From Tubiluchus corallicola (taxonomy: Eukaryota; Animalia; Priapulida), in contig JAQGDQ010000399.1 in assembly GCA_030141605.1 (NCBI GenBank), positions 124,001 through 188,000 of the forward strand: a stretch of 64,000 bases of DNA, in the 5' to 3' direction. This document shows positions 13,800-59,590 of this stretch, piece after piece (the stretch's first letter is position 1; the number at the start of each line of letters is the position of its first letter). The notes beneath the pieces were generated by a model. That model worked only from the letters and a program-made list of their open reading frames with translations, ran no database searches and was not told the DNA's origin. The position numbers and the translations under genes are program-made.

Positions 13800-14750
13800 A
13801 CAAAGAGGTACCTGCATATACATTCATACGCAAATATAGATATGTTGCTTATGCAAAAATTTGAGCGTTAAGCGAGGCTGGCATTACAGATTGGGAGCGT
13901 TATGAGGAGTTTTGACTGTACCCAAGTGAAAATTATCAAGGATATGACATAAGTTTAGTGACCAATGGAAGAGACACAGGAGTGATTCGTCTGTATTTTG
14001 TGGACGGTATGCAATTACGCCACTACCAATATTCACGTGACCATCAAGGGTTTCCGGTGGTCGAGGGTCAGTTTTTAGTTTTCCGTTGTAAATCTCTTGT
14101 ATAGTTTGCAGTGTAGAGTTAAGTAGCGCCAGCATATCATTCGTCCAAGTGCGTGTGAGCATGTTCAATATGCGTGTGAGCATGTTCAATGTGCGTGTGA
14201 GAACATTCAATATGCGTGTGAGCATGTTCAACATGCGCGTGAGCATGTTCAATATGCGTGTGAGCATGTTCAATATGCGTGTGAGCATGTTCAATATGCG
14301 TGTGAGCATGTTCAATATGCGTGTGAGCATGTTCAACATGCGTGTGAGCATGTTCAATATGCGTGTGAGCATGTTCAATATGCGTGCGAGCATGTTCAAT
14401 GTGTGCGCGAGCATGTTCAATATGCGTGTGAGCATGTTCTATGTGCGTGTGAGCATGTTCAATATGCGTGTGAGCATGTTCAATATGCGTGTGAGCATGT
14501 TCAATATGCGTGTGAGCATGTTCAATATGCGTGTGAGCATGTTCTATGTGCGTGTGAGCATGTTCAATATGCGTGTGAGCATGTTCTATGTGCGTGTGAG
14601 CATGTTCAATATGCGTGTGAGCATGTTCAATATGCGTGTGAGCATGTTCAATATGCGTGTGAGCATGTTCAATATGCGTGTGAGCATGTTCAATATGCGT
14701 GTGAGCATGTTCAATAATGTTGTGTATGACATGATAATACATTAAAACTG
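13800..14750 (-). mobile_element. Dispersed element carrying an internal 21-bp tandem array (inverted copy at 37460-38250)
   Basis: Unique flanks on both sides of the array align to 37460-38250 in reverse complement. Confidence 0.8.
14150..14714. repeat. 21-bp minisatellite (ATGCGTGTGAGCATGTTCAAT), ~27 copies
   Basis: Directly visible. Confidence 0.95.
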
Positions 14751-19917: not shown

Positions 19918-21670
19918 ACTTTCAGGTTTGTTGCTCTTATACCATTTAATATTATTACATCATTTACTTCATCCTTATTTACATTAAATTATCTACAGAA
20001 GCATGCATAACTATAATCATTATTTCATTTAAGTAAGGTGAGTGTGTTAATGACCGTATGGTCGTACACTCACCTCGCACTACTCAAATTATTACATCAT
20101 TTACTTCATCCTTATTTACATTAAGTTATCTACAGAAGCATGCATAACTATAATCATTTTTCATTTAAGTAAGGTGAGTGTGTTAATGACCGTATGGTCG
20201 TACACTCACCTCGCACTACTCAAATTATTACATCATTTACTTCATCCTTATTTACATTAAGTTATCTACAGAAGCATGCATAACTATAATCATTTTTCAT
20301 TTAAGTAAGGTGAGTGTGTTAATGACCGTATGGTCGTACACTCACCTCGCACTACTCAAATTATTACATCATTTACTTCATCCTTATTTACATTAAGTTA
20401 TCTACAGAAGCATGCATAACTATAATCATTTTTTCATTTAAGTAAGGTGAGTGTGTTAATGACCGTATGGTCGTACACTCACCTCGCACTACTCAAATTA
20501 TTACATCATTTACTTCATCCTTATTTACATTAAGTTATCTACAGAAGCATGCATAACTATAATCATTTTTTATTTAAGTAAGGTGAGTGCGTTAATGACC
20601 GTATGGTCGTACACTCACCTCGCACTACTCAAATTATTACATCATTTACTTCATCCTTATTTACATTAAGTTATCTACAGAAGCATGCATAACTATAATC
20701 ATTTTTTCATTTAAGTAAGGTGAGTGTGTTAATGACCGTATGGTCGTACACTCACCTCGCACTACTCAAATTATTACATCATTTACTTCATCCTTATTTA
20801 CATTAAGTTATCTACAGAAGCATGCATAACTATAATCATTTTTTCATTTAAGTAAGGTGAGTGTGTTAATGACTGTGTGGTCGTACACTCACCTTGCACT
20901 ACTCAAATTATTACATCATTTACTTCATCCTTATTTACATTAAGTTATCTACAGAAGCATGCATAACTATAATCATTTTTTATTTAAGTAAGGTGAGTGT
21001 GTTAATGACCGTATGGTCGTACACTCACCTCGCACTAGTCAAATTATTACATCATTTACTTCATCCTTATTTACATTAAGTTATCTACAGAAGCATGCAT
21101 AACTATAATCATTTTTTATTTAAGTAAGGTGAGTGTGTTAATGACCGTATGGTCGTACACTCACCTCGCACTAGTCAAATTATTACATCATTTACTTCAT
21201 CCTTATTTACATTAAGTTATCTACAGAAGCATGCATAACTATAATCATTTTTTCATTTAAGTAAGGTGAGTGTGTTAATGACTGTGTGGTCGTACACTCA
21301 CCTTGCACTACTCAAATTATTACATCATTTACTTCATCCTTATTTACATTAAGTTATCTACAGAAGCATGCATAACTATAATCATTTTTTATTTAAGTAA
21401 GGTGAGTGTGTTAATGACCGTATGGTCGTACACTCACCTCGCACTAGTCAAATTATTACATCATTTACTTCATCCTTAGTTACATTAAGTTATCTACAGA
21501 AGCATGCATAACTATAATCATTTTTTCATTTAAGTAAGGTGAGTGTGTTAAAGACCGTATGGTCGTACACTCACCTCGCACTACTCAAATCATTTTATTT
21601 AAAGTTTATTAATGTGTTTGATATTGTATTTTTTGATGTGTGAAAATAAATTCATAGGTCATAGGTCATA
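19918..21670 (+). repeat. 136/137-bp tandem array (12 units) embedded in a LINE-3'UTR-like dispersed repeat
   Basis: Units directly visible; the same left and right flanks occur at 47500-47875 (about 2 units) and a degenerate single-unit version lies at 36955-37110; ends AATAAA + (TCATAGG)n. Confidence 0.9.
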
Positions 21671-21727
21671 GTACGTCATCTTAATGTTGTTTTAATGTCA
21701 TCTTAATGTCGCAATCCGTGTTTTTAG

Positions 21728-21873
21728 GATTATCATGTAATACTGGTCTATAGTGAACAAGCTGGAAGTTTGGTTTATGATCTGGATTCACTTTTGCCGT
21801 TTCCGTATTCATTTCGAAAATACGCATCTCAGACATTCAAATCAGATCTGCTTCTCTTACCCCCCTATCACAG
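21728..21873 (+). CDS. NTAQ1: Protein N-terminal glutamine amidohydrolase, internal exon (DYHV exon)
   Basis: ttttag|GAT...CACAG|gtatgt; DYHVILVYSEQAGSLVYDLDSLLPFPYSFRKYASQTFKSDLLLLPPYHR matches WDYHV1 (W)DYHV...IYDLDTVLPFP. Confidence 0.93.
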
Positions 21874-22042
21874 GTATGTCTCTTACCCCCCTATCACAGG
21901 TATGACATTTTAGCTCATTAGTGATTTTTTTTCTAGGATATTTATTGTAAATGACTGTTTGCGAACTGCCAAACACTGGCCAGTAGCATTTTTTCTTTAT
22001 TTTATCAGGTATAAATGTTTTAGATATAGATATAGTTTAAAG

Positions 22043-22976
22043 TTATTGTTGGCATGCTTCTGTCTCGGAAGACAATGGAGTGTGCGCCAAGAGAGTCAGT
22101 TACGTAAAATAATAATAAAATTATCATTATGCCAGGAAAAATACGCATACCAACTACAAAGTTAAAATTTTGTTAGCAATTATAATGCAGCGTCGAATTA
22201 CATTGTTACTTACGTTTTATCACGTTATGAAATTTCGAATTATTCAAATAAAAAAGTTTGACTTTTAACTTTGCAAAGCTTTTCAAGGTAAACAAAGTGC
22301 CTACTACAAAAATGATACTATATGTATATTAATTATTGCTGACATGCCTTAGCGTTTCAATCAATGTCACCAGTTTCTCCCTATATATATATATATATGA
22401 TAAATATTTTGTCACAGGGAGAAACTGATTACAAAAGCTTTGGGTTACACATTCGCCATTAACTGTCCAGAAGAGTTCACAGCACATAAAATCAATTTCA
22501 TTAACATTGATGGAGCTGCAGCGTCGACTGTGGCTGAGCAGTGCGATCCTTGAACGTCTCCAGGGCGCACGCCTGGGCAAGGTGTTTGGAGATCCTGTGT
22601 TGCCCAGACCGCAGGAACCCCCTCTCTTCCTCCCTGGTGTAGTCCAAAGGAAAGCGGGGCGATACGTTTGGCACCAGGTTGGCTGCAGGAGCTGCAGGAG
22701 TCAGTGAGCATGCTGTACTGATCCGCCTTCAGGGCTGCACTCCTGATTTGGAAGGTTTACTCCTCTACACATGGCCGTTGGGTCACTTGACCTCCTCCAC
22801 CCTCTAGCCGTTGGCTGCTTGTGCCGCTCCTCCGCCTAGTGTCGAGATACAATGTGGGCATCCCGCAAACCTACAGCACCTAGGCGGTCGCCCATCCAAG
22901 TACTAACCAGGCTCTGCGTTGCTTAACTTCGGTGATCAGACGAGAACCGGTGTTTTCAACGTGATATGGCCGTAGT
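22043..22976 (-). mobile_element. 5S rRNA-derived SINE (SINE3-type) with RTE-like tail, copy 1, interrupted by a ~400-bp insertion
   Basis: 5S-like head 22868-22976 (with a 9-bp deletion); body near-identical to 42903-43454; tail ...CCATTGTCTTCCGAGACAGAAGCATGCCAACAA; possible TSD tttaaag/tttaagg. Confidence 0.9.
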
Positions 22977-23387
22977 TTTAAGGATGGATATGGATATCCA
23001 TATATGAGCGTAGATATATATGTAGACGTAAATGTACTTGTCGACATAATAGATACAGATGTAGATAGTAGACATCAATGCATTAATAGTACTTACTAAA
23101 TAGCCACTTTATAGTTTACACCTAACAACTATTGTGACACGTTTCAAGCAGCAGTGCTTCATTGTCTCGTGTTTTTGTTTCTTGATGAAGCATCTTTCTT
23201 TTTGTTTTATGAAAACATGGCTGTTGTCCTTAGTTATACGAAAGTTGACTTTTGATCTTTTGGAACCACGTCTTTCATCTTTTTTGGTTCTTGAAACGTA
23301 ACTTTTCTTTCTTTGGAAACATCACTTTTGTCTTTTTTATTTCATTTCTCCAGAGTACAAATTTTTGAAACGGTATTGATTTTGTAG

Positions 23388-23509
23388 AAAATTTCGAGCA
23401 GTTTCAGCTCAAATGTACTTGGGCACATTTGCATCGGACAGGACGCATATGATCCGCGATGGCCGCTACATGATGGAGCCACCTACCTACCCCTGCATAC
23501 AAACATCTG
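23388..23509 (+). CDS. NTAQ1: NTAQ1 internal exon
   Basis: tttgtag|A AAA...TCT G|gtaagg; KFRAVSAQMYLGTFASDRTHMIRDGRYMMEPPTYPCIQTS matches WDYHV1 RKFRV..YLKNFASDRSHM...PPPYPCI; phases 2 to 1 are compatible with the neighbouring exons. Confidence 0.93.
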
Positions 23510-28617: not shown

Positions 28618-28866
28618 ACATATTTTACATAAGTGAAGTAAAGTGAAGTGATGTTTAGTAATTGTAAGTTCTCAACTATATGATTGAAGTAATTTGTTTC
28701 TATATTTTTGAGTAAATTGAGTAGGTATATAACATATTTTACATAAAGAAAGTGATGTTTAGTAATTGCAAGTAATTAACCATGTGACTGAAGTAATTTG
28801 TTTCTATATTTTAATATTATTATCGTAATGGATGTAGAGAGTTTCACAACTGAGTTTAGCGTGAAA

Positions 28867-29641
28867 TGTTACTTTGTTACAGCGTATTGTTACTTTGTTT
28901 CAGCGTATTGTTACTTTGTTACAGCGTATTGTTACTTTGTTTCAGTGTATTGTTACTTTGTTTCAGCATATTGTTACTTTGTTTCAGCGTATTGTTACTT
29001 TGTTTCAGCGTATTGTTACTTTGTTTCAGCGTATTGTTACTTTGTTACAGCGTATTGTTACTTTGTTTCAGCGTATTGCTACTTTGTTACAGCATATTGT
29101 TACTTTGTTACAGCGTATTGTTACTTTGTTACAGCATATTGTTACTTTGTTACAGCGTATTGCTACTTTGTTTCAGCGTATTGTTACTTTGTTACAGCGT
29201 ATTGCTACTTTGTTACAGCGTATTGTTACTTTGTTTCAGCGTATTGTTACTTTGTTACAGCGTATTGTTACTTTGTTACAGCGTATTGTTACTTTGTTAC
29301 AGCGTATTGTTACTTTGTTTCAGCATATTGTTACTTTGTTACAGCGTATTGTTACTTTGTTTCAGTGTATTGTTACTTTGTTTCAGCATATTGTTACTTT
29401 GTTACAGCGTATTGTTACTTTGTTTCAGCATATTGTTACTTTGTTTCAGCGTATTGTTACTTTGTTTCAGCGTATTGTTACTTTGTTACAGCGTATTGTT
29501 ACTTTGTTACAGCGTATTGTTACTTTGTTACAGCGTATTGTTACTTTGTTACAGCGTATTGTTACTTTGTTTCAGCGTATTGTTACTTTGTTTCAGCGTA
29601 TTGTTACTTTGTTACAGCGTATTGTTACTTTGTTTCAGCGT
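28867..29641 (+). repeat. 21-bp minisatellite made of 37 copies of the NTAQ1 last-exon splice acceptor
   Basis: Unit ATTGTTACTTTGTT(T/A)CAG|CGT; the last unit is the acceptor of exon 29639. Confidence 0.93.
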
Positions 29642-29748
29642 GCACTAATAATCTTCAGCAGTTCATCAGTATGGATGGAACAGCTGGAGTTGGCGAAGTT
29701 TTGACACTTCCAGAGTTTCTGAGGAAATTTTCTGGTGCAAAAAGCTGA
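29639..29748 (+). CDS. NTAQ1: NTAQ1 terminal coding exon
   Basis: tttcag|CG TGC...TGA; ACTNNLQQFISMDGTAGVGEVLTLPEFLRKFSGAKS* matches the WDYHV1 C-terminus MNLNDFISMD...GWGAVYTLSEF. Confidence 0.92.
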
Positions 29749-29859
29749 TGTCTTGGGAACATTTGATTATTGCGGTCTGAACGTTTTGTACTTGTTCGAG
29801 AACTTATTGATCTGTACCTCGTCTGCATTATTTTCATGTAGATTTATTTGTGACCGTGG

Positions 29860-30580
29860 CAGAGATGGGCGGATATCGCTTTCTCGTTTATCCACAACCA
29901 TGAAATCCGCAACTGTACATATCCGCATCCGCAAAATCCGCGGATTGAGTGAAATTTGAATATCCACGTATCCGCAGAAATGTAGGCAAGAAATTGACTA
30001 GGTTTGCTATTGGTGCTCTATTGTTAAAAACCGTTTCTTTGTAGCTGAAGCTAGGAGTTATAACCTCAAATCAATAATGACTTACTAGCGAGACCCCAAT
30101 TTTGCTTGTAAACCTTCAACGACAACTCACACAGCACGATGTACGTAGTACATCACTCGACCAAATCGTGCCAATCACATCACACCACAAATCATAATAG
30201 GCTCGAGTAAAAAACTATAATATTTGTAATTATAAGTAATGTTTTGCGTCTAGGAATTTCCAGGTAAATTAGTGAAAAGTAGCAAAAAAGCAAGGGATCT
30301 TGAGAACATCTTACAATAAACTAGTGATGAAAGGCATTTAATGTGGCAACAAGCCTTTTATTGTACAAGGAAATGCTTGACGAACTGACATTGTGTAAAC
30401 TTTTTGTGCAACACTTGAAAATTTAGAAACGTGACTTTTGCTTGCTGCAGTTTCGCGTGAAATCTACAATTTTAGGCATTAAAAATCCGCAGCCCCAATA
30501 ATTCACTATATACAATCCACAAAATTATTGCGGATTCCGCAACCGCATGACCGCAAATCCACTATATCCACCCATCTCTG
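29860..30580. mobile_element. hAT-like MITE
   Basis: TIR CAGAGATGGGCGGATAT / ATATCCACCCATCTCTG; 8-bp TSD GACCGTGG/GATTGTGG (2 transitions); ATCCGC subterminal repeats. Confidence 0.8.
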
Positions 30581-37459: not shown

Positions 37460-38250
37460 TACAGTTTTCACGTATTATGCCATACACAACATTCTTGAAC
37501 ATGCTCACACGCACATTGAACATGCTCACATGCATATTGAACATGCTCACACGCACATTGAACATGCTCACACGCATATTGAACATGCTCACATGCATAT
37601 TGAATGTTCTCACATGCATATTGAACATGCTCACACGCACATTGAACATGCTCACACGCATATTGAACATGCTCACATGCATATTGAACATGCTCACATG
37701 CATATTGAACATGCTCACACGCATATTGAACATGCTCACACGCATGTTGAACATGCTCACACGCATGTTGAACATGCTCACACGCATGTTGAACATGCTC
37801 ACACGCATGTTGAACATGCTCACACGCATATTGAACATGCTCACATGCATATTGAACATGCTCACACGCATATTGAACATGCTCACACGCATATTGAACA
37901 TGCTCACATGCACTTCGATGAATGATATGCTGGCGCTATTTAACTCTACACTGCAAACTATACAAGAGATTTACAACGGAAAATTAAAAACTGACCCTCG
38001 ACCACCGGAAACCTTTGATGGTCACGTGAATATTGGTAGTGGCGTAATTGCATACTGTCCACAAAATACAGAAGAATCACTCCTGTGTCTCTTCCATTTG
38101 TCACTAAACTTATGTCTTACCCTTGATAACTTTTCACTTGGGTACAGTCAAAACTCGTCATAACGCTCCCCCTCGCTTAACGCTCAAATTTGTACATAAG
38201 TAAAATATCTATATTTGCGTAGACATGAATATATGTAGGCGCCTCTTTGT
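37460..38250 (+). mobile_element. Dispersed element with an internal 21-bp array (~20 copies, 37496-37912); inverted copy of 13800-14750
   Basis: Flank and unit homology. Confidence 0.8.
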
Positions 38251-42902: not shown

Positions 42903-43454
42903 TGTTGTTATTGTTGGCATCCTTCTGTCTCGGAAGACAATGGAGTGTGCGCCAAGAGAGTCAGTTATTGATCACATTGATGGAGCTGCAGTGTCGACTG
43001 TGGCTGAGCAGTGCGATCCTTGAACGTCTTCAGGGCGCACGCCTGGGCAAAGTGTATGGAGATCCTGAGTTGCCCAGACAACAGGAACCCCCTCTCTTCC
43101 TCCCTGGTGTAGTCCAAAGGAAAGCGGAGCGATACGTTTGGCACCAGGTTGGCTGCAGGAGCTGCCGGAGTCAGTGAGCATGCTGCACTGATCCGCCTTC
43201 GGAGCTCCACTCCTGGTTTGGAAGGCTTACTCCTCTACACATGGCCGTTGGTCACTTGACCTCCTCTGCCCTCTAGCCGTTGGCTGCTTGTACAGCTCCT
43301 TTGCCTAGTGTCGAGATACATTGTAAGCATCCCGCAAGCCTACAGCACCTGGTATTCCTAGGCGGTCACCCATCCAAGTACTAAGCAGGCTCTATGTTGC
43401 TTAACTTCGGTGATCAGACGAGGACCGGTGTTTTCAACGCGATTTGGCCGTAGT
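42903..43454 (-). mobile_element. 5S rRNA-derived SINE with RTE-like tail, full-length copy 2
   Basis: 5S head 43336-43454 lacks an oligo-T terminator; (CAA)n-like tail; 11-bp TSD ATTCAGACAGT (42892-42902 / 43455-43465). Confidence 0.93.
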
Positions 43455-43584
43455 ATTCAGACAGTAAACCCTATTAAACCCTATTATGCTTCTTATTATC
43501 TACTAATACACACTATACTACTTAATTACTATACTAATTAATTAACAGCTCTTAACTGATTAAGTATGAAAACAACCAACTTAC

Positions 43585-45747: not shown

Positions 45748-47061
45748 GTGCAACAAAAGACGTGTGCAAAGATCAGAACTGTCAATGGAAATTACTCCTG
45801 GCAAGGAAGTGTTACAAAGAATGAAATAATAAGCTACCACAATATTTTTCAACCAAATTGCAGTTCGTTAGAAGGAAAACAGCTTCAAATAGGCATGGCA
45901 ATGGACGAATCACGCCCGTTTCTAGAGAAATTACTTCTGATGCTCAGTAAAACTCAAAATTTCACATACTCCATCAAAGAAGTTGGAAGTTTACGTGATC
46001 CTAATATTGTACTCAGCAATGAAAACATTGACGTGCTTTTTGGTTTGTTCACCATGCTTCCAGAAAGAACAAAATACATGACATTTCTTCACCCAATTAT
46101 CTATTTACGCCGTATCTTTATAATAAAGAGACACGACTTTCAAGGATTTAGTTTGTTGGACCCTTTTCCCAGAAATGTATGGCTGCTTGTGCTAACATAT
46201 GTCATATTGAGTGGGATATTTTTAACTTGTATCTGTTGGCAGAAAACAGAAACACGAAGAGAGAATGATGGCATCGAGACAGATAATGAGAAAACAGCTG
46301 ATTACTTCATTTTGTACACATTATCCTCACTTCTTCAACAAGGTGGAAACTACATACCCTGCCGTTTATCTGCAAGGATGCTAATCGGATGGTGGTGGAT
46401 TTTTGCTCTTATAATGACGGCATTGTACACTGGCACTTTAGTTAGCAAACTGTTTGTAAGCAAATGGCAGCATCCGTTCACGTCACTGCAGGAGCTAATT
46501 GATGGAGATGTAACGCCTGTAACAATAGGAAACTTCTCCTCGACAATATTACTAAAGAATAGCCCCGCTGATACAGAATATGGGAAACTGTGGAAGAAAA
46601 TGGAAGCTGATGGAACGGTACCTGTCAGTACAAATGTCGAAGCACAGGAAAAAACTTTTTCGGGAAAATATACTATGCTTGATACTGACTTTTGGGCAAA
46701 ATTTCGAATCAATGAAGATTACAAGTTACACGGGACATGCAGGTTTTCAGTTGCTCCAGTTTCTTCTCTGCCCGTACCTGCATCAGCTGTCATTCCGAAA
46801 GGCGGCAAAGAGGCAGAACAGTTAAACTACGGACTGGCCACTTTATTGGAGAATGGGATAGCAGAGCAGCTCTTACAGGAGCATTCAGAACAAACATATG
46901 ATTGCCTTGATCCGGTTACTCAAACTGCGAATGCTCAGCCAGTCAACATAGAGTACATTGATGTTGTATTCTGCGCTCTGCTGCTTGGACTAAGCATTGG
47001 TTTAGTTGTATTTGTAGGTGAATGTCTCTACATAAAAGTAATGCGATTAATGAGCAGCTAA
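45748..47061 (+). CDS. Divergent ionotropic receptor (IR / variant iGluR family), intronless ORF nested antisense in a MEGF intron
   Basis: S1 FTMLPERTKYMTFLHP; pre-M1/M1 LLDPFPRNVWLLVL; pore LLQQG; M3 SARMLIGWWWIFALIMTALYTGTLVSKL; S2; M4 VFCALLLGLSIGLVVFVGE. Start uncertain: GTG after TAG, first ATG at ~45895. Confidence 0.9.
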   Translation: MQQKTCAKIRTVNGNYSWQGSVTKNEIISYHNIFQPNCSSLEGKQLQIGMAMDESRPFLEKLLLMLSKTQNFTYSIKEVGSLRDPNIVLSNENIDVLFGLFTMLPERTKYMTFLHPIIYLRRIFIIKRHDFQGFSLLDPFPRNVWLLVLTYVILSGIFLTCICWQKTETRRENDGIETDNEKTADYFILYTLSSLLQQGGNYIPCRLSARMLIGWWWIFALIMTALYTGTLVSKLFVSKWQHPFTSLQELIDGDVTPVTIGNFSSTILLKNSPADTEYGKLWKKMEADGTVPVSTNVEAQEKTFSGKYTMLDTDFWAKFRINEDYKLHGTCRFSVAPVSSLPVPASAVIPKGGKEAEQLNYGLATLLENGIAEQLLQEHSEQTYDCLDPVTQTANAQPVNIEYIDVVFCALLLGLSIGLVVFVGECLYIKVMRLMSS

Positions 47062-47501: not shown

Positions 47502-47875
47502 TTTCAGGTTTATTGCTCTTATACCATTGCTATTATTACATCATTTACTTCATCCTTATTTACATTAAGTTATCTACAAAAGCATGCATAACTATAATCA
47601 TTTTTCATTTAAGTAAGGTGAGTGTGTTAATGACCGTATGGTCGTACACTCACCTCGCACTACTCAAATTATTACATCATTTACTTCACCCTTATTTACA
47701 TTAAGTTATCTACAGAAGCAGGCATAACTATAATCATTTTTTCATTTAAGTAAGGTGAGTGTGTTAATGACCGTATGGTCGTACACTCACCTCGCACTAC
47801 TCAAATTATTTTATTTAAAGTTTATTAATGTGTTTGATATTGTATTTTGATGTGTGAAATAAAATTCACAGTTCA
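47500..47875 (+). repeat. Short (~2-unit) copy of the 136-bp hairpin repeat element
   Basis: Same flanks and unit as 19918-21670. Confidence 0.88.
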
Positions 47876-53980: not shown

Positions 53981-54109
53981 CTTGCGTGCAGTGGGTTCCT
54001 GTCCATCCAGGTAAACAGTGACATTCTCCGGTCACGTGGTCGCATCTCGTATTGGGAGCACAATTGCAAATGTCCTTGCATTCTTCACCATACTGACCAC
54101 TCGGGCAAA
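53981..54109 (-). CDS. MEGF10: Draper/MEGF10-like EGF-repeat exon
   Basis: ctatag|TT TGC...CAA G|gtagag; CPSGQYGEECKDICNCAPNTRCDHVTGECHCLPGWTGTHCTQ. Confidence 0.93.
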
Positions 54110-55492
54110 CTATAGACAGTATAAGCAATATTATAGACAAAATAAACACTGCTGTACTGACCGCTCGGGTAAACTACAGACAGTATGACAATTATTATAG
54201 ACAAAACAAAAACTGCTGTACTGACCACTCGGGCAAACTATAAAAACTGCTGTATTGACCACTCGGGCAAACTATAGACAGTATGACCAATATTACAGAC
54301 AAAATAAAGACTGCTGTACTGACCACTCGGGCAAACTATAAACACTGCTGTACTGACAGCTCGGGTAAACTATAAAAACTGCTGTACTGACAGCTCGGGT
54401 AAACTACAGACAGTATGACAATTATTATAGACAAAACAAAAACTGCTGTACTGACCACTCGGGCAAACTATAGACAGTATGACCAATATTACAGACAAAA
54501 TAAAGACTGCTGTACTGACCACTCGGGCAAACTATAAAAACTGCTGTACTGACCACTCGGGCAAACTATAAAAACTGCTGTACTGACCACTCGGGTAAAC
54601 TACAGACAGTATGACAATTATTATAGACAAAACAAAAACTGCTGTACTGACCACTCGGGCAAACTATAAAAACTGCTGTACTGACCACTCGGGCAAACTA
54701 TAGACAGTATGACCAATATTACAGACAAAATAAAGACTGCTGTACTGACCACTCGGGCAAACTATAAAAACTGCTGTACTGACCACTCGGGCAAACTATA
54801 AAAACTGCTGTACTGACCACTCGGGCAAACTATAGACAGTATGACCAATATTACAGACAAAATAAAGACTGCTGTACTGACCACTCGGGCAAACTATAAA
54901 AACTGCTGTACTGACCACTCGGGCAAACTATAAAAACTGCTGTACTGACCACTCGGGCAAACTATAGACAGTATGACCAATATTATAGACAAAATAAACA
55001 CTGCTGTACTGACCACTCGGGCAAACTATAGACAGTATGACCAATATTACAGACAAAATAAAGACTGCTGTACTGACCACCCGGGCAAACTATAAAAACT
55101 GCTGTACTGACCACTCGGGCAAACTATAAAAACTGCTGTACTGACCACTCGGGCAAACTATAGACAGTATGACCAATATTATAGACAAAATAAACACTGC
55201 TGTACTGACCACTCGGGTAAACTATAGACAGTATGACCAATATTACAGACAAAATAAAGACTGCTGTACTGACCACTCGGGCAAACTATAAAAACTGCTG
55301 TACTGACCACTCGGGCAAACTATAGACAGTATGACCAATATTATAGACAAAATAAACACTGCTGTACTGACCACTCGGGCAAACTATAGACAGTATAAGC
55401 AATATTATAGACAAAATAAACACTGCTGTACTGACCACTCGGGCAAACTATAGACAGTATAAGCAATATTATACACAAAATAAACACTGCTG
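54091..55492 (-). repeat. Mixed 64-bp/34-bp array (28 units) derived from the acceptor of exon 53981-54109
   Basis: Each unit on - reads ...T(A/G)TAG|TTT(G/A)CCCGAGTGGTCAGTA; unit 1 overlaps the real exon start. Confidence 0.93.
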
Positions 55493-55886
55493 TCATAAGG
55501 CATTACGGCTTTTTAAAAGAAAGTGAAATTGAAGAACTACCATGTTTCCTGTTTTTGCTCTTTATCCGGGGGAATGACCCGATCAATACTCTCTTTGCTA
55601 CTTTTAATGCAGAATGGGTAAGACTTATTTTCTCACGTACAGAAGTAGAATTTCACCTGCTATTACTGTGCAATTGTAACAATACAGGCTACCACTTTTT
55701 CTCTATAGTAAGAGCTATGTTACTACTATAGCTGTGTTAATAATAGTAATAACTAAACTATCAAAAAAACTGTTTAATCAAAATGAAACTCCAAAAAAAT
55801 TAGAAGTTTTACTATCAATGAAATGCTTAAAGCCACGTTTATTAATCCAAGCCAATTTTATTACAGGCACATAGAAATATAAGTAG

Positions 55887-56848: not shown

Positions 56849-57291
56849 GCTATGTAATTACAATTTTGAGCGAGTCACGTATAATGAATATTTGAAAATT
56901 TTAAGTTTTCCAAACACTTTTCCAAGCAAGCACATGTTATTGACAGAGTAAAATAAAAGTAAAAGAAAACGAAATAAAAAAAACTTTTATAAATAAAAAA
57001 TACATTTTGCATTTTCACGTTTTGCATTGTCTTGGTCCCAGTAAACATTGTGTTCGGTCTTTTTCTTGATCTTGGACGCAAAAGCTTAGTCTGGGATTTT
57101 CCAGCAGAATAAAACACCTTTTCTACTCGAGCTTTGGTGTACAGCTTAAATATTCACGATATTTGAATAACTAGACAAACTTAACTGCCGACTTGTGGAT
57201 GATTGTGCTATCCGTGCACACATTTACATTGAATAAGAAAGAACAATAAATAAGAAAGAACAAGAATAAGAAAGAACAATAAAATACCTAC

Positions 57292-57426: not shown

Positions 57427-57446
57427 CTGAAAGATGCATAAAATTA

Positions 57447-59590
57447 TTTCACTCCAATCTCTTCCTCACACATGTCATTGTTTCACTCCTATCTCTTCCT
57501 CACACATGTCATTGTTTCACTCCTATCTCTTCCTCACACATGTCATTGTTTCACTCCTACCTCTTCCTCACACATGCCATTGTTTCACTCCAATCTCTTC
57601 CTCACACACGTCATTGTTTCACTCCTATCTCTTCCTCACACATGCCATTGTTTCACTCCTATCTCTTCCTCACACACGTCATTGTTTCACTCCTATCTCT
57701 TCCTCACACATGCCGTTGTTTCACTCCTATCTCTTCCTCACACATGTCATTGTTTCACTCCTATCTCTTCCTCACACATGCCATTGTTTCACTCCTATCT
57801 CTTCCTCACATGTCATTGTTTCACTCCTATCTCTTCCTCACACATGTCATTGTTTCACTCCTATCTCTTCCTCACACACGTCATTGTTTCACTCCTATCT
57901 CTTCCTCACACATGTCATTGTTTCACTCCTATCTCTTCCTCACACACGTCATTGTTTCACTCCTATCTCTTCCTCACACATGTCATTGTTTCACTCCTAT
58001 CTCTTCCTCACACGTCATTGTTTCACTCCTATCTCTTCCTCACACATGTCATTGTTTCACTCCTATCTCTTCCTCACACACGTCATTGTTTCACTCCTAT
58101 CCCTTCCTCACACATGTCATTGTTTCACTCCTATCTCTTCCTCACACACGTCATTGTTTCACTCCTATCTCTTCCTCACACATGCCATTGTTTCACTCCT
58201 ATCTCTTCCTCACACATGTCATTGTTTCACTCCTATCTCTTCCTCACACATGTCATTGTTTCACTCCTATCTCTTCCTCACACATGTCTTTGTTTCACTC
58301 CTATCTCTTCCTCACACATGTCATTGTTTCACTCCTATCTCTTCCTCACACATTCATTGTTTCACTCCTATCTCTTCCTCACACATGCCATTGTTTCACT
58401 CCTATCTCTTCCTCACACATGCCATTGTTTCACTCATATCTCTTCCTCACACATGCCATTGTTTCACTCCTATCTCTTCCTCACACATGCCATTGTTTCA
58501 CTCCTATCTCTTCCTCACACATGCCATTGTTTCACTCCTATCTCTTCCTCACACACGTCATTGTTTCACTCATATCTCTTCCTCACACACGCCGTTGTTT
58601 CACTCCTATCTCTTCCTCACACATGTCATTGTTTCACTCCTATCTCTTCCTCACACATGTCAGTGTTTCACTCCTATCTCTTCCTCACACACGTCATTGT
58701 TTCACTCCTATCTCTTCCTCACACATGTCATTGTTTCACTACTATCTCTTCCTCACACATGTCATTGTTTCACTCCCATCTCTTCCTCACACATGTCATT
58801 GTTTCACTCCTATCTCTTCCTCATACACGTCATTGTTTCACTCCTATCTCTTCCTCACACACGTCATTGTTTCACTCCTATCCCTTCCTCACACATGTCA
58901 TTGTTTCACTCCTATCTCTTCCTCACACATGTCATTGTTTCACTCCTATCTCTTCCTCACACATGCCATTGTTTCACTCCTATCTCTTCCTCACACACGT
59001 CATTGTTTCACTCATATCTCTTCCTCACACATGTCATTGTTTCACTCCTATCTCTTCCTCACACATGCGATGTTTCACTCCTATCTCTTCCTCACACATG
59101 TCATTGTTTCACTACTACCTCTTCCTCACACATGTCATTGTTTCACTCCTATCTCTTCCTCACACACGTCATTGTTTCACTCCTATCTCTTCCTCACACA
59201 TGTCATTGTTTCACTCCTATCTCTTCCTCACACATGTCATTGTTTCACTACTATCTCTTCCTCACACATGTCATTGTTTCACTCCTATCTCTTCCTCACA
59301 CAAGTCATTGTTTCACTCCTATCTCTTCCTCACACATGTCATTGTATCACTCCTATCTCTTCCTCACACATGTCGTTGTTTCACTCCCATCTCTTCCTCA
59401 CACATGTCATTGTTTCACTCCTATCTCTTCCTCACACAGGTCACTGTTTCACTCCTATCTCTTCCTCACACATGTCATTGTTTCACTCCTATCTCTTCCT
59501 CACACATGTCACTGTTTCACTCCTATCTCTTCCTCACACATATCATTGTATCACTCCTATCTCTTCCTCACCACACATATCACTGTTTCA
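57447..59590. repeat. 34-bp minisatellite, ~63 copies
   Basis: Unit TGTCATTGTTTCACTCCTATCTCTTCCTCACACA; the 700-aa ORFs are artefacts. Confidence 0.95.

What the first reader, a model, noticed from the sequence alone, without database searches (positions are those of the whole stretch)
28867..29748. Ladder of 37 in-frame splice acceptors in front of the NTAQ1 terminal exon
Seen: the 21-bp unit is the exon's own 3' splice site (18 nt of pyrimidine-rich intron ending CAG plus the first 3 exon nt, CGT). AGs recur every 21 nt from 28882 to 29638. The unit is a multiple of 3 and stop-free in the NTAQ1 frame (ORF 28798-29748), so each upstream acceptor would add AYCYFV(S/T), up to 36x7 = 252 aa, just before the conserved C-terminus. 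Known: NTAQ1 is the conserved Gln-specific Nt-amidase of the Arg/N-degron pathway, and spliceosomes tend to use the first suitable AG after the branch point. Inference: either the cell selects the last of 37 near-identical acceptors, or the locus makes a length ladder of isoforms, a VNTR-scale version of NAGNAG splicing that could tune enzyme dose with repeat number.
Basis: partly seen in the sequence, partly recalled or inferred. Interest (0 to 1): 0.85.

Follow-up and report, generated by a model that had tools for sequence, protein, structure and literature searches.

The report
In-frame splice-acceptor minisatellite in NTAQ1
In a protein-turnover gene (NTAQ1) of what is likely a priapulid worm, the last 18 bases of an intron plus the first 3 bases of the final exon are repeated 37 times in a row; this is a known kind of repeat ("mirage"), and the cell likely splices at the last copy, although no RNA was available to test this.

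Summary
There are 37 CAG acceptors exactly 21 nt apart (28882-29638), in frame and stop-free before the NTAQ1 last exon, giving an insert of up to 252 aa. The class is known: 'mirage' minisatellites spanning intron-exon boundaries (amphioxus Adh3, globins) and their donor-side human counterparts (F7, 6-16, CBS), where the authentic site is used alone or with one or two neighbours. The open frame is cheap: 54 of 60 simulated 21-nt duplications at six other phase-1 acceptors of the window are also stop-free. A second acceptor array 25 kb away has 27 decoys, none giving an open frame. Relatives lack the insert, which would be uncharged and hydrophobic. Three things keep the case open. The unit is too short to carry the likely original branch point, which now sits before copy 1. 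A last exon escapes exon-size and junction-based decay safeguards. All 36 amplified units differ from the flanking copy at the one base that would otherwise make a stop codon. No RNA covered the locus, and residues 1-68 (catalytic Cys) were not found in the window. The scan noted this class before in other genomes. Verdict: new member of a known kind; dose tuning unsupported.

The parts
28867..29641 (+). 21-bp minisatellite, 37 acceptor copies (18 nt intron end + first 3 exon nt); 7 unit variants interleaved plus a diverged first copy
29639..29748 (+). NTAQ1 last coding exon (phase 1, 110 nt to the TGA stop); keeps all 6 columns that are at least 90% conserved there
28850..28854 (+). Candidate original branch point (CTGAG, A at 28853, about 30 nt before copy 1 and about 785 nt before the real exon); consensus match only, inferred
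28857..28859 (+). TAG 23 nt before copy 1, followed by the same four bases as the true acceptor; use would give an immediate stop
29610..29615 (+). Weak in-array branch-point candidate (TGTTAC, A at 29614) for the last acceptor; the AG just after it is close enough to be bypassed under the mammalian rule; inferred
23388..23509 (+). NTAQ1 penultimate exon; its donor (GTAAGG) opens the 6129-nt last intron
21728..21873 (+). NTAQ1 exon carrying the His and Asp of the catalytic triad
21853..21904 (+). 26-bp x2 duplication of that exon's end and donor; the second donor shifts the frame (donor-side mirage in the same gene)
54091..55493 (-). Internal control: 64/34-bp acceptor array before exon 54109-53981 of an EGF-repeat gene; 27 decoys, 9 in frame, 0 open

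Best explanation
The array is a tandem repeat of the intron-exon boundary of the NTAQ1 last exon that likely arose by a 21-bp local duplication and likely grew by ordinary minisatellite turnover, and the spliceosome likely uses mainly the last acceptor, so the array would leave with the intron. Shown: the repeat, its frame, the intact exons, two other boundary-spanning repeats in the window. Inferred mechanism: the last exon is defined from its own side (exon-like sequence and 3'-end signals), which places U2AF and U2 on the nearest pyrimidine tract and on a weak in-array branch point about 25 nt upstream. The 36 upstream copies are followed by U-rich intron-like sequence and stay pseudo-sites, perhaps with minor use of the nearest one or two. 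Inferred and weak: being in frame may have let the first duplication survive (an extra 7 residues in a loop rather than loss of the C-terminus), without giving it a function.
For: Published class in which splicing is normal: amphioxus mirages (PMC3087553 passages; PMC3902484 passage). In F7, LMNB2 and PDGF only the authentic site is used, and in 6-16 and CBS two neighbours are used as well (PMC1557585). Window control: 27 decoy acceptors before an intact-looking EGF exon, 0 of 27 open. Boundary-spanning arrays: 3 of 32 arrays against 0.33 expected (P 0.004; without the index array 2 against 0.30, P 0.04). The 50 nt after the last AG are exon-like (T 0.26, purine 0.54; eight other exons T 0.24-0.36, purine 0.44-0.60), those after copies 1-34 are not (T 0.46-0.54, purine 0.34-0.38). 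Relatives P0001 and P0002 and Priapulus P0003 have no insert, and 115 of 121 homologues keep the same 12-residue span. The last exon is not decaying: 28 of 35 identical to P0001, against 26 of 35 between P0001 and P0002; 33 of 35 conserved columns are kept over the three exons. The insert has no charged residue and a mean hydropathy of +1.15, while four natural loops with insertions score -0.86 to -2.49. Unit variation is 4 sites, 2 of them CpG transitions, 2 silent and 2 replacing, with no coding signal (my reading).
Against: No junction read was seen, so site choice is untested. Intronic signals cannot single out the last copy: copies at 29071 and 29575 match it over 87 and 45 nt upstream plus 3 nt downstream, and 10 of 36 copies share its TTACAG-then-TTTCAG arrangement. 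The array has no YTNAY branch-point match, while better candidates lie before copy 1, so a 5'-to-3' scan from there would choose copy 1 (PMC1431707). In human genes new AGs between branch point and acceptor are often harmful (PMC9284458 abstract). In gamma-globin constructs with duplicated sites the proximal copy was used, though another study found the opposite (as cited in PMC1557585). A last exon has no size limit or downstream junction to penalise an upstream choice (established knowledge). The junction is in a predicted loop where 5 of 121 homologues carry 1-11 extra residues. All 36 amplified units differ from the flanking copy at the base that would otherwise form TAA in frame (7 of 63 single changes would do that). 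The EGF gene used as control was not shown to be expressed. Conserved exons do not exclude a very young damaging array.
Confidence: 0.6

Rival explanations
1. Leaky ladder without function: several copies are used at appreciable rates, giving mRNAs with 7n extra hydrophobic residues that escape nonsense decay; the short forms may fold, the long ones would be degraded, and the gene tolerates the loss.
For: Copies identical to the last one over the core signals; in frame and stop-free; loop position with natural inserts up to 11 aa; 6-16 and CBS use two neighbouring pseudo-sites; the stop-avoiding base is fixed in 36 of 36 units.
Against: Mirage loci tested by RT-PCR splice normally; sequence after upstream copies is intron-like; the open frame is common by chance.
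Confidence: 0.2
2. Damaged allele: the original branch point before copy 1 still dominates, so most mRNA carries the full 252-aa insert, or the exon is poorly spliced; the allele is weak or null and persists because it is young, heterozygous or dispensable.
For: The 18 intronic bases of the unit exclude the candidate original branch point at 28853; there is no YTNAY in the array; scanning model.
Against: The array has accumulated 7 interleaved variants, so it is not brand new, yet the last exon shows no excess divergence; the other boundary repeats suggest this genome copes with decoys.
Confidence: 0.1
3. Pseudogene or assembly artefact: the locus is a 5'-truncated dead copy, or the array length is wrongly assembled.
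For: Residues 1-68 with the catalytic Cys were not found in the 21.7 kb upstream; no genome was held to look further; no listed contig bridges array and exon.
Against: Three intact exons with canonical GT-AG sites and conserved columns kept; no other Pfam-detected gene interrupts 1-21700 among the stop-free stretches of 45 aa or more tested, which fits a long intron; variant units interleave without long repeated blocks; tandem units exist in X1 contigs.
Confidence: 0.07
4. Adaptive rheostat: repeat number sets the share of active enzyme, or the heptad ladder is a functional extension.
For: In-frame design and the stop-avoiding base; tandem repeats associated with splicing levels exist in humans (PMC10078293 passages).
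Against: No conservation in relatives; no coding signal in unit variation; frame-breaking arrays occur beside it; 9 of 32 arrays in the window have a period divisible by 3, as chance predicts.
Confidence: 0.03

Closest known systems
Amphioxus 'mirage' minisatellites (Adh3, globins BflGb6/BflGb9, troponin C, PGBD5; PMC3087553 and PMC3902484, passages read)
   Same: Tandem repeat whose unit is intron end plus exon start, carrying AG signals; homogenised interior and diverged edge copy; invertebrate genome rich in minisatellites.
   Different: Here the unit is short (21 nt; Adh3 units are 10-72, BflGb6 150-160), there are 37 copies (BflGb6 has 3 or 6), every copy is in frame and stop-free, it precedes a last exon, and the host is likely an ecdysozoan. 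Normal splicing was shown by RT-PCR there and is untested here.
Human donor-side boundary VNTRs: F7 IVS7 37 bp x5-9, interferon-inducible 6-16 (25 pseudo-sites), CBS IVS13 (15-20 repeats), LMNB2, PDGF (as described in PMC1557585; first part and passages read)
   Same: Many identical splice sites in a row; the one next to the exon is used alone or with two neighbours.
   Different: Those repeat the 5' donor, where exon-nearest is also first-transcribed. Here the acceptor is repeated, so exon-nearest is last-transcribed, and a branch point must also be chosen.
NAGNAG tandem acceptors (PMC1431707 passages; PMC3250501 search listing only)
   Same: Alternative in-frame acceptors for one exon.
   Different: NAGNAG sites compete within under 12 nt after one branch point; sites 21 nt apart would need different branch points.
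Human NTAQ1 (PDB 3C9Q, 4W79; PMC11168063 passages)
   Same: Same family; triad His81/Asp97 equivalents present in exon 21728-21873.
   Different: The Cys28-bearing exons were not found in the window; human NTAQ1 has no insert at this junction (alignment with P0001).

Membership tests
Mirage minisatellite | Tandem repeat spanning an intron-exon boundary | tested here: met
   Unit = 18 nt intron + 3 nt exon; array ends at 29641
Mirage minisatellite | Copies carry AG or GT splice signals | tested here: met
   37 of 37 copies end in CAG
Mirage minisatellite | Homogenised interior with diverged edge copy | tested here: met
   36 units in 7 variants differing by 1-2 nt; copy 1 differs at its 5' side
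Mirage minisatellite | Length varies between alleles | tested here: inconclusive
   Only short contigs of one run lie on the array; depth is not copy number
Mirage minisatellite | Regular splicing is not disturbed | tested here: inconclusive
   No RNA holder listed; relatives without insert are other species or paralogues
F7/6-16/CBS-type boundary VNTR | Reiterates the 5' donor site | tested here: not met
   It reiterates the acceptor; a two-copy donor case is at 21853-21904
NAGNAG tandem acceptor | AGs 3 nt (under 12 nt) apart after one branch point | tested here: not met
   Spacing is 21 nt throughout
AGGT-duplication intron gain / recursive splice sites | Unit holds AG directly followed by GT | tested here: not met
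   0 AGGT in the array
NTAQ1 (PF09764) | Profile match across the domain | tested here: met
   Profile positions 58-111, 111-150, 153-184 on three exons
NTAQ1 (PF09764) | Cys-His-Asp catalytic triad | tested here: inconclusive
   His and Asp present; the Cys exon was not found in the window

The most novel reading that the evidence does not exclude
A branch-point-less, in-frame acceptor array before a last exon that is really used: the mRNA pool carries a 21-nt ladder of NTAQ1 isoforms that no frameshift or decay filter removes, the share of normal enzyme falls as the array grows, and the stop-free unit was the one that selection allowed to expand.
Probability: 0.15. Interest if true: 0.65.

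Novelty: new member of a known kind. Interest (0 to 1): 0.3.

Why it matters
As a class it is known and likely harmless. Its value is as a clean natural test of 3' splice-site choice. There are 37 near-identical acceptors, every outcome is in frame, and in a last exon none should be removed by junction-based nonsense decay, so junction counts would report spliceosome choice directly: scanning from the old branch point predicts copy 1, exon-side definition predicts copy 37. It also likely extends mirages to an ecdysozoan, with three boundary repeats at 17 mapped splice sites in one 64-kb window.

Tried and rejected
RNA: no RNA holder listed; X2 (guessed RNA, same species label) had nothing laid on 29430-29770. 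This is no evidence on expression, and the donor-to-acceptor junction was not tested. Copy number from X1 depth: rejected, contig depth is not copy number. No whole genome was held, so upstream exons, paralogues and a species splice model were out of reach. Metagenome scan with P0001: 80 loci kept of 107, none above 52% identity, no orthologous intron. RNA structure as selector: 28780-29760 folds worse than all 20 shuffles (z +1.93). Pfam MSG hit on the long ORF: rejected as a low-complexity match. Single-sequence AlphaFold of the repeat plus last exon gave two long helices with pTM 0.49: uninformative. Intron gain or recursive splicing through AGGT: none in the array. Origin by the 23-nt microhomology duplication: does not give the 21-nt unit; a 21-nt duplication plus one substitution is simpler. 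Pfam scan covered the 323 stop-free stretches of 45 aa or more outside repeats; shorter exons would be missed. Literature: searches found no paper showing a used ladder from an acceptor-spanning minisatellite; the library lacks most subscription papers. Not held, so not read: Turri 1995, Canestro 2002, Smith 1993, Kuhne 1983 and a recalled PNAS paper on introns from tandem arrays. Supplementary alignments of PMC3087553 were not opened. Reed and Maniatis-type cis-competition results are recalled only and not used as evidence.

Full report
Observation. The sequence holds 37 CAG trinucleotides whose G lies at 28882+21n, ending at 29638, with all 36 spacings 21 nt. The unit pattern occurs 37 times in the window, only here, against 0.36 expected. 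Exons 21728-21873, 23388-23509 and 29639-29748 match PF09764 positions 58-111, 111-150 and 153-184 and join in frame through GT-AG sites using the last AG. Use of copy 1 would add 252 residues. All three plus-strand frames of the array are open.

Host and gene. The closest protein found, P0001 (unnamed, 193 aa), matches the three exons at 45 of 48, 36 of 40 and 28 of 35 residues. Its best named relative is Priapulus caudatus NTAQ1 at 63%, other animals at 56% or less, so the host is likely a priapulid (inference). Residues 1-68, which hold the catalytic Cys (human Cys28), were not found by tblastn or by a 9-residue word scan. No other Pfam-detected gene lies in 1-21700 among the stretches tested, so a long intron is the simplest reading, but a truncated copy is not excluded. 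The window keeps 33 of 35 columns that are at least 90% conserved in 121 homologues, including all 6 in the last exon.

Is the open frame meaningful? Simulated boundary duplications of 12-72 nt at seven other acceptors of the window are both in frame and stop-free in 1916 of 11893 cases (16%). At 21 nt, 54 of 60 are open at six other phase-1 acceptors and 0 of 20 at the phase-0 and phase-2 acceptors. Of 32 arrays with period 10 or more, 9 have a period divisible by three. The property is common. One detail points the other way: the intronic 18 nt of copy 1 differ from the other units at one base, an exact repeat of copy 1 would place TAA in the NTAQ1 frame, and all 36 amplified units carry the other base; 7 of 63 single changes would do this. 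It is a post hoc, single observation, and which state is ancestral is unknown.

Context. The window is 25% minisatellite. Three of 32 arrays span one of 17 mapped splice sites, against 0.33 expected by random placement (P 0.004; without the index array 2 against 0.30, P 0.04). These are this array, a 26-bp duplication of an NTAQ1 exon end with a frame-shifting second donor, and a 64/34-bp array of 28 acceptor copies before an EGF-repeat exon at 54109 on the minus strand. Of its 27 decoys 9 are in frame and none is open. If that gene is functional (not shown), this genome ignores decoy acceptors that cannot give a protein.

Which AG? The copies are 18 TTTCAG and 19 TTACAG; those at 29071 and 29575 equal the last copy over 87 and 45 nt upstream and 3 nt downstream, so core intronic signals cannot decide. 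The array has no YTNAY match; candidates lie before copy 1 (28846, 28853), and only weak TGTTAC motifs lie near the last copy, one with its A at 29614. Under the mammalian rule the first AG after the branch point is used and AGs within 12-15 nt of it can be bypassed (PMC1431707, passages). The old branch point would then select copy 1, and the A at 29614 would bypass the AG at 29616 and select copy 37. What differs at copy 37 is the downstream sequence, exon-like in composition, whereas copies 1-34 are followed by U-rich sequence. RNA structure offers no selector. I infer exon-side definition of the last exon, at 0.6.

Protein consequences. The junction lies in a coil (residues 143-162) of a confident model of P0001 (mean pLDDT 91.9). 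Of 121 homologues (the best 120 of 1526 hits, plus P0002), 115 keep a 12-residue span there, 5 have 1-11 more and 1 has one fewer. The natural inserts are polar; the heptad insert has no charged residue and averages +1.15 hydropathy. One or two heptads might be tolerated; dozens likely would not (inference).

Reads. Public run X1 holds short contigs matching tandem units (13 laid, 8 shown, 7 of them on the array with 0-1 differences). None shown bridges array and exon, copy number cannot be read, and X1 may be the window's source. Site choice remains untested.

Comparison with what is known. [quoted passage not shown] PMC1557585 (first part and passages) lists donor-side cases: only the authentic site in F7, LMNB2 and PDGF, two extra neighbours in 6-16 and CBS. 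The array meets the three sequence features of a mirage; allele variation and normal splicing are untested. It is not a NAGNAG site and not an AGGT-type intron-gain unit. Earlier notes of this scan report the same class in other genomes and gave me the term; I checked the papers, not their RNA claims. The searches found no paper showing a used ladder from an acceptor array.

Verdict. A real, new member of a known kind, most likely silent. It is unusual in combining a unit too short to hold its branch point, a fully open frame and a last-exon position, which makes it a clean test case. Interest 0.3. A real ladder that scales with repeat number has probability about 0.15 and would deserve about 0.65.

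Noticed in passing
window 54091-55493 (-): Second acceptor mirage: 28 copies of acceptor plus about 19 exon nt in 64- and 34-bp units before an EGF-repeat exon; 0 of 27 decoys give an open frame.
   Followed up: yes
window 21853-21904 (+): 26-bp duplication of an NTAQ1 exon end and donor; the second donor (GTATGA) would shift the frame and reach a stop in the next exon.
   Followed up: partly
window 21675-21710, 57226-57283, 57443-59571: Three more arrays end 8-18 nt from a splice site without spanning it; the first triplicates a TTAAT branch-point-like motif. Leaving out the index array, 5 of 31 arrays end within 25 nt of a site, against 0.79 expected (P 0.001).
   Followed up: partly
window 57426-44916 (-): Six exons of an EGF-repeat (MEGF-like, label recalled) gene with 102-156 nt exons, all multiples of three.
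   Followed up: partly
window 45748-47058 (+): 437-aa open frame with a ligand-gated ion channel domain (PF00060, E 1.8e-23), nested on the opposite strand in an intron of the EGF-repeat gene.
   Followed up: no
window 22868-22977 (-) and 43337-43455 (-): Two dispersed 5S rRNA matches, one inside an NTAQ1 intron; they share flanking sequence, so possibly a 5S-derived mobile repeat.
   Followed up: no
window 29860-30580: Element with 17-nt inverted ends (94%) 112 nt after the NTAQ1 stop, repeated in run X1; it holds the first AATAAA after the stop (30315), so the 3' end may depend on an inserted element.
   Followed up: no
window 14150-14716 and 37495-37912; 19951-21594 and 47532-47810: The same 21-bp unit (opposite strands) and the same 136-bp unit occur at two places each, suggesting minisatellites carried by dispersed elements.
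   Followed up: no
window 29638-29640: The junction codon is Ala here, where P0001, P0002 and Priapulus have Asp or Glu (94 of 121 homologues); the changed bases are the exon bases shared with the repeat unit.
   Followed up: no
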